Made by a program: the position numbers and the translations under genes. Shown here in pieces: positions 2,500 through 24,758 of a stretch of DNA of 38,029 nucleotides. The DNA comes from a virus. Each line of letters starts with the position of its first letter. Within the stretch, counting starts at the first letter, position 1. Below the pieces are notes generated by a model, which saw nothing but the letters and a program-made list of their open reading frames with translations, did not search any database and had not been told where the DNA came from. The DNA lies in UHGV virus genome UHGV-0335973, one strand, 5' to 3'.

Positions 2500-3471
2500 A
2501 TGTCAATCTCCACAACGATCGTACCTCTTAATCTTCAACAAGATTTAGGGGAACAGAAGTTCTTAGGTCGTGGGTGCTTCGGTATCCACAACTACATGCA
2601 AGGTCAAGTCGTAGCTGATATTAATGGTGAAACTATCTCGGAAGAAGGGCGTTATCGTCGTTTCAACCGTGATATCAACTTGCAACTGGAGATGTTGAAT
2701 TACTGGACTCACTCTTTTCACGGTCATATTGCATCTGAAATTGAAAAGAACTTGGTTGAAACAGCAGACATTATGAACTCCATGTCTTGCTATCGTCACG
2801 TATTTACGATCACTTCGGCGAATAGTGTTGCTGTCAACCTTCGTGAGCATCCAGCAGATCAGATCTTCACAGGACTTATGCTCTTCCGTAGTATTCTGGA
2901 AGGGCAATATCGTGGAATGGATTTCCTAGCAGAAGGAATTGAAGACAGGGAAGAGTGGCTGAAGCGTAAACGCATCGGCATCGCTCTAGTGTTAGCTGGG
3001 TTGGGTCGTGACTTCTTCGGTGGATGGTCTCAACGAGGAAGAGCCAATGGGAGTAGCGAGAGCACCTCTATTGTTATTAACAACAATATGTCAGCAGCAG
3101 CATTCCTTCCTTTGGTTGTAGACTCTGATGAATATACGAAGCAAGTATGGGTTCAAAACCCTTTCGGTGTTGGTGACAACAAGGATGGTTATGTTCGCAA
3201 CCATAACCAAGATGCCTTACGAAGATTTGCTCGTGCTAAAGATCAAGACCCAGACGAGTATGAAACAATGTCAGAGTGGTTAAGACTCTGGTCCAACTGT
3301 CATGGTCACAAACGTGAATCAATAGACGACAAGTTGGGAAACATTACAGTACAAAACTTTACATCCCGACTGATTCAAAGAACTGGAGCAGATTCCGGTC
3401 TTACTCTTGAAGAAGTTGGTAACACAATCTCATCTCTCTTTTCTGAACTAGTGGAGTATTACAATGACTAA
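2500..3471 (+). CDS. hypothetical protein (323 aa)
   Basis: long ORF, overlaps next gene by 8 nt. Confidence 0.6.
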   Translation: MSISTTIVPLNLQQDLGEQKFLGRGCFGIHNYMQGQVVADINGETISEEGRYRRFNRDINLQLEMLNYWTHSFHGHIASEIEKNLVETADIMNSMSCYRHVFTITSANSVAVNLREHPADQIFTGLMLFRSILEGQYRGMDFLAEGIEDREEWLKRKRIGIALVLAGLGRDFFGGWSQRGRANGSSESTSIVINNNMSAAAFLPLVVDSDEYTKQVWVQNPFGVGDNKDGYVRNHNQDALRRFARAKDQDPDEYETMSEWLRLWSNCHGHKRESIDDKLGNITVQNFTSRLIQRTGADSGLTLEEVGNTISSLFSELVEYYND

Positions 3472-4270
3472 GCGCAATTTCTTAATAGGCAGCGACCCTG
3501 AGATGTTCGTCCGTACCAGCAACGGTATTATCACCTCTGTGGCTGGTCTGTTAGGCTGTTCTAAGGATGATAAGATCACTCTGGCTAAGGATGTTCGTCT
3601 TCAAGAGGACAACGTACTGGCTGAGTTTGATATTGACCCACAGAGCGGTTTTGAAGCGTTTAACGATAACATGCAACGTGGTATTGATCTCACCAATAAT
3701 GTCCTGAACAAACTGGACATGGAAATAGCTCCGGGTGTTAGCTCTCACATCTTCACTGAAGAAGAGATGAAAACTTTCAACGAATCAGCGTTCATCTTCG
3801 GGTGCACTCCTGATTTCAACGCCTTCACTGGTCAGAAGAATCCATCCCCGACTTCTCAGAATAAGGGACTTCGTACTGCCGGTGGTCACGTACATCTTGG
3901 TGTGGTTGGTGCTTTGGATATCACTCTGCAAACCCAGATGATGTTGGGTGTGCTGTGTGATTACTTCCTATCCCTCCCAGCAGTAATTATGGACAAAGAT
4001 ACTCGCCGTAAAGAACTCTACGGTAAAGCATCTGCAATCCGTTATAAAGACTATGGTATTGAATACCGTTCTCTGTCTAACTTCTGGATTAGTGGTCGTG
4101 AAAACCGTAAGTTTGTTTACGATCAGGTTGACAAGGTTGTTCAGCAGTGCGATATGTCCACTCTGATGGCATTGCACTCTCGTCTTCCGATTGAGAAGCT
4201 TCATGAAATCATTAACGGGAACAACGTTAAAGAAGCGGACCAGCAGATCAAACTCCTTCAGGTAGCATAA
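3464..4270 (+). CDS. amidoligase-like protein (divergent Amidoligase_2 / glutamine-synthetase-like COOH-NH2 ligase)
   Basis: N-terminal LIGSDPEMF acidic strand, GGHVHLGV and IEYRS motifs that parallel GVGIELELEG, STHVHMD and GSIEFR in the neighbouring amidoligase. Confidence 0.45.
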   Translation: MTKRNFLIGSDPEMFVRTSNGIITSVAGLLGCSKDDKITLAKDVRLQEDNVLAEFDIDPQSGFEAFNDNMQRGIDLTNNVLNKLDMEIAPGVSSHIFTEEEMKTFNESAFIFGCTPDFNAFTGQKNPSPTSQNKGLRTAGGHVHLGVVGALDITLQTQMMLGVLCDYFLSLPAVIMDKDTRRKELYGKASAIRYKDYGIEYRSLSNFWISGRENRKFVYDQVDKVVQQCDMSTLMALHSRLPIEKLHEIINGNNVKEADQQIKLLQVA

Positions 4271-4279
4271 GAGGTTATC

Positions 4280-4897
4280 GTGAGCTTAGTAGCTGATTTT
4301 TCTCATTACTATAATGGTACATGGATTGCTAAACGAGCAGGTAATATCAACCTTCCATGTTTTGTGATTGGTGTTGAGCAGAGCGGTAACTTCCGCAGTG
4401 ATGACTTCTCTCACGAAGCAGAACAGGCTCTGTACTTTGTTGTAGAGCAGTGGTACAAGAACGAGCATGGGAATCTCCGAAACACTACGATGAATATTCC
4501 AGTGTTCGACCCAACTTTGATTCTTGAATCACCTGATGTTGGTTATCTGTTCCATAACGGTAACACTGTAAGCTGGACTCATATCAACCCTGTTCGTCAG
4601 AGAGCGAAGGGTTTGATGGGTAACAAGATCCGAAACGCTCCGGGGGTTGGTCGTTCTATCTCTGGTGAAATGGTTTACAGTCTATTCAATCCTGAATTCG
4701 AAGGATTGGTTACTCGTTATATTTATATCAACCCTACGGATGGTAAGGTGCACTATAAAGGTGCACTGGTAGGACAAGTAGATCTGGAAGCGCCTCGTGA
4801 CTCTTACGGTCAGCAACCAATGCGACTTCTGGAACACTTTCATCACATTTCTGAAAACCTTAGCAATTATAATATTACGTTGGTGGATTCGTTATGA
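4280..4897 (+). CDS. hypothetical protein (205 aa, GTG start)
   Basis: ORF with AAGAGG SD; overlaps next gene (ATGA). Confidence 0.5.
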   Translation: MSLVADFSHYYNGTWIAKRAGNINLPCFVIGVEQSGNFRSDDFSHEAEQALYFVVEQWYKNEHGNLRNTTMNIPVFDPTLILESPDVGYLFHNGNTVSWTHINPVRQRAKGLMGNKIRNAPGVGRSISGEMVYSLFNPEFEGLVTRYIYINPTDGKVHYKGALVGQVDLEAPRDSYGQQPMRLLEHFHHISENLSNYNITLVDSL

Positions 4898-22207: not shown

Positions 22208-23558
22208 GTGAGCAACCCGGACGCTCTTCCATTTTTGACAGAGATGACTGTCGCTGATATAATCTCTAAGCAAGCAAAGCACGGAGTGAGTTTCAACCGA
22301 AGAAATGCTCGGTGGTATGTTCACCTCCTTAAAGAGATTATTGTTAATATTGACAGAGAGTTGATTCCTCTCTTACCTAAGATGAGATTAGACGGCTCTA
22401 CTTATATGAAGCCGTTTAAGAAGTCTGGAGCTTTGCAGAAGTGGCCTCAAGCTTATTGTGATAGGGTTGGACTTAAGAGAGAAGATATTGGTGGAGCTTT
22501 CACCTGTGTCGAATATGTAGACTTTGACCCATCGAAAGATGCACGAGTTAAAGAAGCTCTTATGGATGAGGGCTTTCTTCCTCCAGAGTTTAACGTATCT
22601 AAGAAGCCTTGGAATACTTTCGAAATTAAGAAAGACATGAGAAAGTATGGAACATACCAAGCATGGTATACTGCTTGGATGCGAGGCAATGCTAAGCAGA
22701 AGCAGACAGCCGAGATGGTTGACGCTGATATTAAGAAGTTCTTAGAAAAGCATTTCAGGTTTAAAACTAAGAACTACATGAAGGCTTATGTATTTGGTTT
22801 AGGTTTAAACCCTAACCGACGTAATCCTGTAACGTTTGATGAGATTAAGAAAGCACTAGCCACATCAAACAAGTGGCCTACAGCTCCTACAAACCTCGAG
22901 GAGACTCTTGAAGAAGGGTTAGGGGGTGAGCTAGGGAGTGTCGGAAGTTTGCTTAAGAGACGCGTTGTAGCGGCTCACAGGCTAGGTCTTATCAGTGGAC
23001 TCATAGCAAAGGAGCGCGAAGATGGTAAACTTTCGGCAGAAGCTAACAGCTGCGCTACGCCGACTTTTCGATTCAAACACCGTATCGTGGTTAATATTCC
23101 CTCCCGTGGTTTGTTTGGTCATGAGTGTCGCAGTTTGTTTGAATCTGACTATAACTCAGATGATGATCACTCTCGTCCTTTCGTTATTACTAACGTTGTT
23201 CCTGATGGTTGTTATATACGAAAAGGTACTAACGTAATTTATGAGAAAGGTAAACCGGGGAAGAAAGACAAACCTGTAGGTGCTTACAAATATTACATAC
23301 CCGCTGGTAAAGAAGTATTCTTAGGGTATGATGGTTCTGGGCTTGAACTTCGTATGCTCGCTCACTACCTCATTAAAGAGTGTAGGGATATGCTTGCTGA
23401 GGCAATCGAAGAGAACAATCCAGCTAAGAAAGCTCTGGCAGAACGTGGTTTAGCTTCTGCTATTATGTATCGTGATATTCTCCTTGAAGGTGATATCCAC
23501 TCCCACAACCAGAAACTTGCTGGTCTTCCTACTCGTGACAACGCTAAGACGTTTATCT
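22208..23558 (+). CDS. DNA polymerase (family A, T7 gene 5-like polymerase domain), exon 1
   Basis: motif A GYDGSGLELRMLAHY; DIHSHNQKLAGLPTRDNAKTFI = start of motif B; track stop 23558-23560 is created by the intron. Confidence 0.75.
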
Positions 23559-24264
23559 GACGTAAATGGATACTTCGAGAGTAATCTCGTCGATTAAATT
23601 GGGTGAACTCAGGGAAACTCTCTAGTAGACAATCCTGAGCCAAGCAAGTATTCTATAGCAACTCAACAAGGAGGTGCTTATGGAATATACAACTGTAACT
23701 AAAACTAAAGAAGAACAGACTGCCGAGGCAGGTAAATACCCTCAAGGTCAGTTCAACCCAAAACCTTGCCGTAATTGCTCAAAAGATTTTCAACCAAATG
23801 CACCATCTGAACATTATTGCTCTGATGGATGCAAAGATAGAGGCTGGAGAAATTCATACTTCAAACGAATGTATGGAATCACAGCCGATGATTACGAAAA
23901 GATGTACGCTGATCAGGATGGGAAGTGTGCTATCTGTAAGGGCGAAGGATTTGTAATGGCAACACATCACAGAATTAGACTTGTGGTTGATCATTGCCAT
24001 GAATCTGGAGTAATACGTGGTCTGTTGTGTCACAACTGCAACAGAGCTTTAGGGCTACTGAAAGATGATGTTAGCCGATTAGAAACAGCTATAGAATACT
24101 TGAAGGTGCAACGACTATCCGAAAGGAGTACACCGGAAGCTGATGCCGGTGGAAGCGCCCAACCCCTCGACAGAGGGTGATGATATAGTCTATCCTACAC
24201 GGCGACGTGTAGCAGTTCATAAGAGAACGGGCAGGAGTGTTGCGGCTCCTGTCGAATATACGAG
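23559..24264 (+). mobile_element. group I intron (706 nt) with endonuclease VII-type HNH ORF
   Basis: P1 pairing exon UAUCU with intron GGAUA (~23568); 5' and 3' segments homologous to intron 1 with compensatory changes in two hairpins; splicing yields KTFIYAFNYGAGD, matching T7 KTFIYGFLYGAGD spacing. Confidence 0.65.
23674..24180 (+). CDS. intron-encoded HNH endonuclease (endonuclease VII family)
   Basis: CAICKGEG...VVDHCHESGVIRGLLCHNCNRALG motif; AAGGAGG SD. Confidence 0.65.
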   Translation: MLMEYTTVTKTKEEQTAEAGKYPQGQFNPKPCRNCSKDFQPNAPSEHYCSDGCKDRGWRNSYFKRMYGITADDYEKMYADQDGKCAICKGEGFVMATHHRIRLVVDHCHESGVIRGLLCHNCNRALGLLKDDVSRLETAIEYLKVQRLSERSTPEADAGGSAQPLDRG

Positions 24265-24758
24265 ATGCGTTCAACTACGGTGCTGGCGACGCTAAGCTTG
24301 GCTCAATTGTAGGTGGTGGGGCTGACGAAGGCTCAGTGATGCGAGCACGTTTCTTAGCAGAGAACCCATGTATTGCAATCCTCATTGATCGTATGACAGA
24401 AAAGGCTGCTCAAGGGTACTTGATTGGTGTTGATGGTCGTAAGATTACAATGAGACGAGATGCCACTGGTAAAGTTATGGTTCATAAAGCCCTTAACACA
24501 CTCCTGCAATGTGCTGGTGCTGTTGTTATGAAATATGCTATGATGTTCCTCAACAAGTGGATTGAGAGGGATGGGGTTCGTTGTGCTAAGGTAATTGATA
24601 TGCACGATGAAGGTCAATTCTCAGTAAACCGTAATGATGTACAGAAACTCAAAGAGCACACTGAGCTTTGTGTTAAGAAAGCTGGTGAGTATTTGAACAT
24701 GGAATGTCCTCTGGCTTCTGATTGTCAGATTGGATTAAATTGGATGCACACACACTAA
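24265..24758 (+). CDS. DNA polymerase, exon 2 (motif B/C region)
   Basis: AFNYGAGDAKLG and NTLLQCAGAVVMK, HDEGQF matching T7 gene 5 C-terminal region; track start 24237 is intron-encoded. Confidence 0.7.

What the first reader, a model, noticed from the sequence alone, without database searches (positions are those of the whole stretch)
23559..24264. Second group I intron with endonuclease VII-type HNH ORF interrupting the DNA polymerase gene
The polymerase ORF stops at TGA 23558-23560, in the middle of motif B (…RDNAKTFI). After an Endo VII-like HNH ORF the coding sequence resumes. Exon end UAUCU pairs with intron GGAUA (~23568) for P1. Splicing after T 23558 and G 24264 yields KTFIYAFNYGAGDAKLG, matching the T7 gene 5 spacing KTFIYGFLYGAGD and creating a Tyr codon across the junction (T|AT).
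Basis: partly seen in the sequence, partly recalled or inferred. Interest (0 to 1): 0.7.

Follow-up and report, generated by a model that had tools for sequence, protein, structure and literature searches.

The report
Mobile group I intron in phage polymerase

Summary
Compared with the uninterrupted polymerase genes of phiEco32 and ES17, the window has a 706-bp insertion at 23559-24264. Removing it restores ...KTFIYAFNYGAGDAKLG, identical to the phiEco32 protein.

The insert has a complete group I fold of the IA/IA2 type: P1 with a U.G pair at the 5' splice site, P2 to P9.2 including P7.1 and P7.2, and a terminal G. Covariation across nine related introns supports the fold: 94% of cells paired, 39 of 61 pairs changed on both sides, 0 of 500 shuffles as good. 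Rfam scores it 42.7 bits, below the cut-off of 50, because a 428-nt loop holding the ORF sits in P6a. An ORF-less relative at the same site scores 75 bits.

The ORF (23680-24180) is an endonuclease VII-type ("DHHRN") enzyme with all catalytic and zinc-binding residues present.

The same intron, 96% identical, is annotated as a joined CDS in phages Bas93 and Bas94. Homologous endonuclease genes sit in polymerase introns of Yersinia, Pectobacterium and Klebsiella podophages.

Two details are mildly interesting. Related introns use three insertion sites within 12 nt of motif B. This intron also looks like a mosaic of one ribozyme subtype and an endonuclease cassette from another.

Splicing and homing are inferred, not shown. 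Interest is low.

The parts
22208..23558 (+). DNA polymerase exon 1 (family A polymerase lacking exonuclease domains). It ends after the first base of a Tyr codon in motif B. If unspliced, translation stops at TGA 23558-23560.
   Evidence: ORF list. 97.0% nt identity to phiEco32 phi32_53.
23559..24264 (+). Group I intron, 706 nt, IA/IA2-type, from G23559 to the terminal (omega) G24264.
   Evidence: Exact gap against intronless phiEco32 and ES17. Rfam RF00028 42.7 bits, E 2e-9. Covariation.
23554..23572 (+). P1: exon UAUCU 23554-23558 pairs with internal guide GGAUA 23568-23572, with U23558.G23568 at the 5' splice site. The loop GACGUAAAU includes a candidate P10 strand, ACGUA 23560-23564.
   Evidence: Sequence. 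The same pairing is present in Bas93 and MQM1. At the two neighbouring sites the guide sequence changes to match the exon.
23576..23589 (+). P2 hairpin CGAGA-GUAA-UCUCG.
   Evidence: Sequence. MQM1 has GGGGA-GUAA-UCCCC, so two pairs are changed on both sides.
23599..23605 (+). P3 5' strand UUGGGUG; pairs with 24156-24162.
   Evidence: helix 1: 5 of 7 pairs changed on both sides, 96.8% of cells paired.
23609..23638 (+). P4 (23609-23614 with 23633-23638) enclosing P5 (23619-23621 with 23627-23629).
   Evidence: helices 2 and 3: 100% of cells paired; 4 of 6 and 2 of 3 pairs changed on both sides. Also recovered in the unconstrained minimum-free-energy fold.
23639..23659 (+). P6 5' strand GCC 23639-23641 and P6a 5' strand CAAGUAUUCUAUAGC 23645-23659.
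   Evidence: Perfect 15-bp complement to 24088-24102 (sequence). helices 4 and 5.
23680..24180 (+). Homing-endonuclease gene, 166 aa, Endo VII / DHHRN type. Shine-Dalgarno AAGGAGG lies at 23668-23674. The gene sits in the 428-nt P6a loop. Its last 31 codons overlap P6a', P6', P7, P7.1, P7.2, P3' and P8. The stop codon UGA lies in J8/7.
   Evidence: Pfam PF02945 E 7e-24. Alignment to T4 Endo VII and Hpy99I. 95.8% aa identity to the Bas93 'endonuclease VII'.
24088..24107 (+). P6a 3' strand 24088-24102 (inside the ORF, encoding ..AIEYL..) and P6 3' strand GGU 24105-24107.
24113..24151 (+). P7 5' strand GACUA 24113-24117; P7.1 CC-GAAA-GG 24119-24126; P7.2 CACCGG/CCGGUG 24131-24136 with 24146-24151. 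P7.1 and P7.2 are the subgroup IA hallmark.
   Evidence: helices 6-8. P7 is invariant. All 6 pairs of P7.2 are changed on both sides.
24156..24190 (+). P3 3' strand CGCCCAA 24156-24162; P8 CCCUC-GACA-GAGGG 24164-24177; J8/7; P7 3' strand UAGUC 24186-24190.
   Evidence: helices 1, 9 and 6. Matches the Rfam consensus GAUAUAGUC.
24195..24253 (+). Peripheral 3' helices: P9 24195-24212 (GCGA loop), P9.1 24215-24228, P9.2 24230-24253.
   Evidence: helices 10-12. Compensatory differences between the window and Bas93 in P9 and P9.2. Minimum-free-energy fold.
24265..24758 (+). DNA polymerase exon 2. It starts with AT, completing the Tyr codon. UGCGU 24266-24270 could form P10 with intron ACGUA.

Best explanation
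The 706 nt at 23559-24264 are a mobile group I intron of the phage IA/IA2 type, inserted in the motif B (O-helix) coding sequence of the family A DNA polymerase gene of a phiEco32-like (Gordonclarkvirinae) coliphage.

Inferred mechanism, by analogy with characterised group I introns:
- The pre-mRNA folds into P1-P9.2.
- An exogenous guanosine attacks after U23558, which pairs as U.G with G23568 in P1.
- The freed exon 1 then attacks after the terminal G24264. This joins T|AT into a Tyr codon and restores a 614-aa polymerase.
- Unspliced RNA terminates at the UGA formed across the 5' junction.

The P6a loop carries a separately translated gene with its own Shine-Dalgarno sequence, in a different frame. 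It encodes an Endo VII-type (DHHRN, beta-beta-alpha-metal) endonuclease. This enzyme is inferred to cut intronless polymerase alleles near the insertion site during mixed infection. Recombinational repair would then copy the intron in (homing).

Shown here: the exact boundaries, the conserved and covarying ribozyme fold, an intact endonuclease active site, and patchy distribution among close relatives. Inferred: catalytic splicing, endonuclease specificity and mobility.
For: - Boundaries: there is an exact 706-nt gap against the intronless phiEco32 and ES17 genes, and the spliced protein is identical to phiEco32 across the junction.
- Family match: Rfam Intron_gpI full-length hit, E 2e-9. The ORF-less homologue at the same site in Aeromonas phage MQM1 scores 75.1 bits and Pseudoalteromonas phage HP1 scores 75.5 bits, above the cut-off of 50.
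- Covariation on nine introns: 94.1% of cells paired, against 34-44% when the partners are slid. 39 of 61 pairs are changed on both sides, against 5-11 when slid. 0 of 500 shuffles did as well.
- The unconstrained minimum-free-energy fold of the ORF-deleted intron recovers P3, P4, P5, P6a, P7.1, P7.2, P8, P9, P9.1 and P9.2.
- The differences between the window and Bas93 that fall in P7.2, P9 and P9.2 are compensatory or wobble-preserving.
- At three neighbouring insertion sites the guide sequence is complementary to the local exon, with U.G at the cut.
- Endonuclease: Pfam Endonuclease_7 E 7e-24. C83, C86, D104, H105, H107, R113, C117, C120 and N121 align with T4 Endo VII C23, C26, D40, H41, H43, R54, C58, C61 and N62 (residue roles from PMC6083498).
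- Distribution: of 148 phage records matching the polymerase region, only Bas93 and Bas94 carry the intron. The window's exons are closer to intronless phiEco32 and ES17 (97.0-97.5% in exon 1) than to Bas93 (94.9%). The intron itself is 96.2% identical to that of Bas93.
- The identical endonuclease protein is found in 17 metagenome contigs. The six shown all have the same polymerase context.
- Bas93 and Bas94 are viable isolates, and their records annotate the polymerase as a joined CDS.
Against: - No RNA or biochemical data are available, so splicing and homing are inferences.
- The window's own Rfam score (42.7 bits) is below the gathering cut-off of 50. The Rfam alignment mis-threads the region after P6, because the ORF loop sits in P6a.
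- P1 is invariant among the four introns at this site, so it has no covariation of its own.
- P10 is weak and is not conserved in MQM1.
- I chose the P6a columns of the covariation alignment by eye for complementarity and replaced the loops with GAAA. P6a's contribution to the statistics is therefore partly circular.
- P8 and P9.2 show some unpaired cells, which I attribute to gaps placed by MAFFT.
Confidence: 0.93

Rival explanations
1. The intron splices, but the endonuclease is no longer active or no longer recognises Kuravirus polymerase genes. The intron would then be vertically inherited and immobile in this lineage.
For: Only 3 isolates (the window, Bas93, Bas94) among about 100 sequenced relatives carry it. 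The ORF has a 23-codon tail dictated by the ribozyme sequence. No cleavage data exist for any member of this endonuclease clade, as far as the searched literature shows.
Against: All catalytic and zinc-ligand residues are intact. The ORF is full length in the window, in Bas93 and in 17 metagenome contigs. Between the window and Bas93, 20 nt differences in the ORF give only 7 aa changes. Intron presence does not follow exon similarity.
Confidence: 0.12
2. This is a split polymerase gene. A free-standing endonuclease gene has been inserted, and the two polymerase halves are made as separate polypeptides without RNA splicing.
For: Gene callers on metagenome contigs and several GenBank records annotate two polymerase ORFs plus an endonuclease. 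An ORF starting at GTG 24237 covers exon 2.
Against: The break lies inside a codon of the O-helix. GTG 24237 lies inside helix P9.2 and has no usable Shine-Dalgarno spacing. The flanking 205 nt of non-ORF insert fold into a covarying group I core. The insert is bounded by the canonical U and G.
Confidence: 0.02
3. The insert is an intein or another protein-level insertion, or an assembly artefact.
For: None beyond the fact of an insertion in a conserved motif.
Against: Exon 1, the ORF and exon 2 are in three different frames, and a stop codon forms at the junction. The same insertion is present in independent isolates and in 17 metagenome contigs.
Confidence: 0.01

Closest known systems
Polymerase intron of Escherichia phages AidaStucki_Bas93 (PQ850593) and ManiMatter_Bas94 (PQ850617), BASEL collection
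   Same: Same gene, same insertion point and same 706-nt length. 96.2-96.3% nt identity. The endonuclease is 95-96% identical. The polymerase CDS is annotated as a join with 'endonuclease VII' nested inside it.
   Different: The exons of Bas93 are less similar to the window (94.9% and 93.7%) than those of intronless phiEco32 and ES17. The BASEL paper itself never mentions an intron.
[quoted passage not shown] The Berlin and YpP-G cases are noted in PMC6083498.
   Same: The endonuclease is homologous (58-60% aa identity). The P6a stems and ORF leader are homologous. The ORF is in P6a, and the target is the same polymerase motif B.
   Different: The insertion point is 5 nt upstream (after ...ACGTT; Yersinia, Jarilo, RCIP0053) or 7 nt downstream (after ...ATGCGTT; IME184, Kpp-61), with matching guide sequences. 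Their ribozymes are a different subtype: no P2, a different P4, a short P8, and only 51-62% identity in P3-P6. Their ORFs stop at UAA inside GUGUAACGACUA rather than reading on through the core.
[quoted passage not shown]
   Same: Identical insertion point (...ACGTTTATCT|...|ATGCG) and the same P1 (UAUCU/GGAUA). It has P2. It is the closest ribozyme core (81% in P3-P6, 74% in P7-P8). Rfam scores it 75.1 bits.
   Different: It is 289 nt long with no endonuclease gene, only a short P6a loop. The host phage is unrelated.
PhiI and W31 (T7-like) IA2 introns with the HNH endonuclease I-TslI (Bonocora & Shub 2004, 2009), and the Pf-WMP3 intron with I-PfoP3I (PMC3428280)
   Same: These are experimentally self-splicing IA2 introns in podophage family A polymerase genes. 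The endonuclease ORF is inserted in P6a. In Pf-WMP3 the ORF extends through P6a, P6, P7, P7.1 and P7.2, and P7.1 and P7.2 are linked by G-U-A, as here.
   Different: PMC3428280 reports other insertion sites: E. coli Pol I position 881 for PhiI and W31, and 674 for Pf-WMP3 and SPO1. The present site corresponds to about position 762 by my own numbering from memory. Their endonucleases are classical HNH enzymes, not Endo VII-type. The two Bonocora & Shub papers were not available to read.
T4 endonuclease VII, Hpy99I and F-CphI (DHHRN family of beta-beta-alpha-metal nucleases)
   Same: The catalytic core and zinc ligands are conserved. F-CphI shows that this motif can serve as a homing endonuclease.
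   Different: [quoted passage not shown] F-CphI is free-standing. The N-terminal 60 residues here (CxxC...CxxxC) match none of them.

Membership tests
Group I intron (Rfam RF00028) | Precise excision boundaries: the 5' exon ends in U paired with G in P1, and the intron ends in G. | tested here: met
   U23558.G23568 in UAUCU/GGAUA; terminal G24264. The boundaries are fixed independently by alignment to intronless genes.
Group I intron (Rfam RF00028) | Score at or above the family's gathering cut-off (50 bits). | tested here: not met
   42.7 bits, E 2e-9, full model length. I attribute the shortfall to the 428-nt ORF loop in P6a. Homologous ORF-less introns score 75.1 bits (MQM1, same site) and 75.5 bits (HP1).
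Group I intron (Rfam RF00028) | Conserved core helices P3-P8, including the P3/P7 pseudoknot, supported by covariation. | tested here: met
   94.1% of cells paired, 39 of 61 pairs changed on both sides, 0 of 500 shuffles as good, slid controls 34-44%. P7 is invariant and so gives no information either way.
Group I intron (Rfam RF00028) | Guanosine-dependent self-splicing. | not testable with these tools
   Needs in vitro transcription and splicing, or RT-PCR.
Subgroup IA / IA2 | Extra helices P7.1 and P7.2 between P7 and P3', linked by G-U-A (criterion as quoted in PMC3428280). | tested here: met
   P7.1 24119-24126, then GUA 24128-24130, then P7.2 24131-24151. All six P7.2 pairs covary. I did not test formal IA2 against IA3 assignment with subgroup-specific models.
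Endo VII-type (DHHRN) homing endonuclease | Endonuclease_7 domain with CX2-4C ... DH(D)H ... R ... CX2C-N. | tested here: met
   Pfam E 7e-24. C83/C86, D104, H105, H107, R113, C117/C120 and N121 align with T4 Endo VII residues (motif definition).
Endo VII-type (DHHRN) homing endonuclease | Site-specific cleavage of the intronless allele, and homing. | not testable with these tools
   Only indirect support: patchy distribution and disagreement between exon and intron similarity.
Intein | In-frame insertion with no stop codons, and Hint-domain motifs. | tested here: not met
   A stop codon forms at the junction; three different frames are used; the only Pfam hit is Endonuclease_7.

The most novel reading that the evidence does not exclude
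The intron may be a natural chimera. A ribozyme already resident at this exact site is seen without an ORF in Aeromonas phage MQM1. That ribozyme would have captured an Endo VII-type endonuclease cassette (P6a stems, leader and ORF). Elsewhere the same cassette sits in a different ribozyme subtype, 5 nt upstream and 7 nt downstream in the same motif B. On this reading, one endonuclease lineage targeting motif B has been paired with at least three ribozyme and guide-sequence combinations. These would be natural intermediates for the Bonocora-Shub model, in which introns and endonucleases converge separately on one conserved target and then unite.
Probability: 0.5. Interest if true: 0.4.

Novelty: new member of a known kind. 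Interest (0 to 1): 0.2.

Why it matters
In practice this matters mainly for annotation. The polymerase of this phage and of its metagenomic relatives should be annotated as one spliced 614-aa protein, not as two polymerase fragments plus an endonuclease. Several GenBank records of related introns and all the metagenome gene calls get this wrong.

Biologically, it extends the known IA2 + Endo VII-type polymerase introns from Autographiviridae to Gordonclarkvirinae. Together with its relatives it also offers a compact natural series for studying how homing endonucleases and ribozymes become associated: three staggered sites, two ribozyme subtypes, and one ORF-less form.

By my own numbering from memory, the split codon corresponds to T7 Tyr526 / E. 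coli Pol I Phe762, the residue that governs dideoxynucleotide discrimination. That fits the rule that such introns sit in the most conserved and functionally critical codons.

None of this is surprising to a specialist.

Tried and rejected
- Rfam at gathering threshold on the whole window gave no hit. The intron appeared only with the E-value threshold.
- I first assumed, from memory, that this was the PhiI/W31 (I-TslI) intron site. PMC3428280 places those introns at E. coli position 881, a different site. The Vi06 endonuclease at the neighbouring site is unrelated to the one here, apart from a tail encoded by the ribozyme. I dropped that identification.
- The two Bonocora & Shub papers (PMC529087, PMC2856452) are not held. 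Statements about them rest on citing papers and on my memory.
- Scans of IMG/VR for further introns at this exact site: a P1/P2 pattern gave 0 hits. [quoted passage not shown]
- The Rfam register for P1 (GACGUUUAU with AUGGAUACU) has non-canonical pairs and leaves the splice-site U unpaired. I rejected it in favour of UAUCU/GGAUA.
- An extension of P4 by C23608-G23639 was rejected, because IME184 has A-G at that position. The pair G23639.U24107 was assigned to P6 instead (helix 4).
- Literature searches for an intron in phiEco32-like phages found nothing relevant.

Full report
**Observation.** The window comes from a phiEco32-like coliphage (Gordonclarkvirinae/Kuravirus type). The 3-kb region around the finding matches about 100 Escherichia phages of that group at 94-96% identity. 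The ORF 22208-23560 is the N-terminal 450 residues of the phiEco32-type family A DNA polymerase, and it stops at TGA 23558-23560. I aligned the window with the uninterrupted 1845-nt polymerase genes of phiEco32 (phi32_53) and ES17. This gives a single gap of exactly 706 nt at window 23559-24264. The flanks join as ...ACG TTT ATC T|AT GCG TTC..., giving ...AKTFIYAFNYGAGDAKLG..., identical to the phiEco32 protein there.

**What the insert is.**
- Rfam gives a full-length Intron_gpI match at 23544-24212: 42.7 bits, E 2e-9, below the 50-bit cut-off.
- Reading the sequence, I placed every element of a group I ribozyme. P1 is exon UAUCU 23554-23558 with GGAUA 23568-23572, with U.G at the splice site.
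- P2 is 23576-23589, with a GUAA loop.
- P3 is 23599-23605 with 24156-24162.
- P4 is 23609-23614 with 23633-23638.
- P5 is 23619-23621 with 23627-23629.
- P6 is 23639-23641 with 24105-24107.
- P6a is a perfect 15-bp helix, 23645-23659 with 24088-24102.
- P7 is 24113-24117 with 24186-24190.
- P7.1 is 24119-24126 and P7.2 is 24131-24151. They are joined by GUA, which PMC3428280 quotes as the hallmark of subgroup IA2.
- P8 is 24164-24177, P9 is 24195-24212, P9.1 is 24215-24228 and P9.2 is 24230-24253. The terminal G is at 24264.
- The sub-threshold Rfam score is explained by the 428-nt P6a loop. Rfam mis-threads everything after P6. ORF-less homologues score 75.1 bits (Aeromonas phage MQM1, same insertion site) and 75.5 bits (Pseudoalteromonas phage HP1).

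**Comparative test of the fold.**
- I collected related introns from phage records: Bas93, MQM1, Vi06, YpP_T3, RCIP0053, IME184, HP1 and Draal02. I replaced each P6a loop by GAAA, aligned the nine sequences (A1) and counted pairs for my structure.
- 94.1% of cells form standard pairs, against 34-44% when the partners are slid by 1-3 columns.
- 39 of 61 pairs carry changes on both sides, against 5-11 when slid.
- No shuffle out of 500 reached any observed measure.
- P3, P4, P5, P6a, P7.2, P8 and P9 all covary. P7 and P9.1 are essentially invariant.
- Caveats: I picked the P6a columns by eye for complementarity, and MAFFT gap placement degrades P8 and P9.2.
- An unconstrained minimum-free-energy fold of the ORF-deleted intron recovers ten of the helices.
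- Of the 27 differences between the window and Bas93, those that fall in stems are compensatory or wobble-preserving. P9 changes from UACACG/CGUGUA to UACAUG/CAUGUA. P9.2 changes from AG..C to GA..U. P7.2 changes an A-U pair to G.U.

**The ORF.**
- The real start is ATG 23680, six bases after AAGGAGG 23668-23674. This gives 166 aa, the same length as the Bas93 'endonuclease VII' CDS.
- It matches Pfam Endonuclease_7 (E 7e-24), and the PDB sequences of Hpy99I and T4 Endo VII.
- C83/C86, D104, H105, H107, R113, C117/C120 and N121 align with T4 C23/C26, D40, H41, H43, R54, C58/C61 and N62. These are the zinc ligands and catalytic residues that define the 'DHHRN' homing-endonuclease family of Fang et al. 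(PMC6083498).
- The ORF is in a different frame from both exons. Its last 31 codons run through P6a', P6', P7, P7.1, P7.2, P3' and P8 to a UGA in J8/7. The same arrangement is described for the Pf-WMP3 intron.

**Distribution.**
- Of 148 phage records matching the polymerase region, only Bas93 and Bas94 contain the intron, at 96.2-96.3% identity. Both annotate the polymerase as a joined CDS.
- The BASEL paper that released them does not mention introns.
- The identical endonuclease protein occurs on 17 metagenome contigs. The six shown all have the same polymerase context.
- The window's exons are closer to intronless phiEco32 and ES17 (97.0-97.5% in exon 1) than to Bas93 (94.9%), whereas the intron is 96.2% identical to that of Bas93.
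- Presence or absence therefore does not track the host gene. This fits horizontal spread or repeated loss.
- In the three intronless or intron-bearing Kuravirus sequences compared with the window, the only exon nucleotide within about 100 nt of the junction that is shared by the intron-bearing ones (window, Bas93) and absent from the intronless ones is G at exon 2 position +5; MQM1 also has G there. It would strengthen a P10 pairing (ACGUA 23560-23564 with UGCGU 24266-24270). It could also be a short co-conversion tract.

**Relatives, and what is slightly unusual.**
- The nearest endonuclease homologues outside Bas93 and Bas94 (58-60% aa identity) are all inside DNA polymerase introns of Autographiviridae: Yersinia phages Berlin, Yepe2, YpP-G and YpP_T3; Pectobacterium phage Jarilo; Klebsiella phages IME184, Kpp-61 and RCIP0053. 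Fang et al. already noted the Berlin and YpP-G cases.
- These introns are not at the same nucleotide. Site A is after ...AAGACGTT| (Vi06, YpP_T3, Jarilo, RCIP0053). Site B is five nt further on, after ...TTTATCT| (window, Bas93, Bas94, MQM1). Site C is another seven nt on, after ...ATGCGTT| (IME184, Kpp-61).
- Each site has a guide sequence complementary to its own exon and U.G at the cut.
- Segment identities suggest a mosaic. The window's P3-P6 and P7-P8 are closest to MQM1 (81% and 74%) and Vi06 (79% and 75%). Its P6a stems and ORF are closest to IME184, RCIP0053 and YpP_T3, whose ribozyme cores are only 51-62% identical and lack P2.
- In that second subtype the ORF ends at the UAA of GUGUAACGACUA. 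In the window the element reads GUGCAACGACUA, so translation continues for 23 codons (..QRLSERSTPEADAGGSAQPLDRG).
- The Vi06 endonuclease shows no Pfam hit and no BLASTP similarity to the window's beyond the C-terminal stretch that includes this tail. It carries a homologous ribozyme-encoded tail (..STSEANADGSAQPLETE).
- This is what exchange of endonuclease cassettes at P6a of a shared scaffold would produce. It fits the Bonocora-Shub idea that endonucleases and introns converge separately on a conserved target. It remains an inference from nine sequences.

**Mechanism and rivals.** The best explanation (confidence 0.93) is a self-splicing, probably mobile, group I intron.
- A non-spliced split polymerase is very unlikely. 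The break lies inside a codon of the O-helix. The only start codon for 'exon 2' lies inside P9.2. The non-coding parts form a covarying ribozyme.
- An intein is excluded by the frames and the junction stop codon.
- An artefact is excluded by independent isolates and contigs.
- The one live sub-question is whether the endonuclease is still active on Kuravirus targets. The sequence says probably yes, but only cleavage and cross experiments can tell.

**Comparison with the known, and novelty.**
- The kind is well known: an IA2 intron with an endonuclease ORF in P6a, in a conserved polymerase motif of a lytic podophage. Examples are PhiI and W31, Pf-WMP3 and SPO1, at other polymerase sites according to PMC3428280.
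- The specific endonuclease family in polymerase introns is published. This very intron is annotated in GenBank.
- What I could not find described is its presence in Gordonclarkvirinae, the staggered trio of sites, and the mosaic structure.
- I therefore rate it a new member of a known kind, with low interest (0.2).

Noticed in passing
window 11825-12608: This is the 'first' intron. A 784-nt insertion interrupts the DNA primase/helicase gene relative to phiEco32 phi32_75: exon 1 ends ...GAGTGGGGT| and exon 2 starts |ATTCCATATCC. Its 3' core (about 12440-12608) is the same IA2-like family. Its ORF 11919-12419 is Pfam HNH_3, a different endonuclease family. Rfam gives only 27.7 bits. No phage record covers 80% or more of 11850-13500, so unlike the polymerase intron it has no close annotated relative. 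Phage vB-EcoP-XT18 may carry a related intron, because its record appears to start and end inside one.
   Followed up: partly
L018, L019, L021 (metagenome contigs), about 3558-4413 in locus coordinates: Wild relatives that carry the identical Endo VII-type ORF have polymerase exon 2 cut short (98-132 aa called), followed by a 131-aa HNH_3 ORF. This suggests a further intron in the polymerase gene that the window lacks.
   Followed up: no
window 23549-23563: The first five intron bases GACGU (23559-23563) can pair with exon ACGUU (23549-23553), and they do so in the minimum-free-energy fold. This mimics the P1 of the neighbouring 'site A' introns (GACGUU/GACGUC in Vi06). It could be a relic, chance, or simply the P10 strand. 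MQM1 lacks it.
   Followed up: partly
L006 (Aeromonas phage MQM1) 3112-3743: MQM1 has a second polymerase intron (Rfam 61 bits) just before ...DEIQ (motif C). This appears to be the position PMC3428280 gives for PhiI and W31 (E. coli 881). The window's polymerase is uninterrupted there.
   Followed up: no
L010, L011, L012, L013, L015, L016: The same ribozyme family (3' core 72-77% identical in the loci fetched) interrupts other genes in unrelated phages: RNA polymerase (Draal02, PPWS1), terminase large subunit (UAB_1) and others. Each has a different endonuclease type. Many of these records annotate the host gene as two fragments.
   Followed up: no
L007 (Klebsiella phage RCIP0053) about 2990-3425: The Endo VII-type ORF in this site-A intron is broken: 76 aa, then a second frame. 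It is a possibly decaying endonuclease gene in an otherwise intact intron.
   Followed up: no
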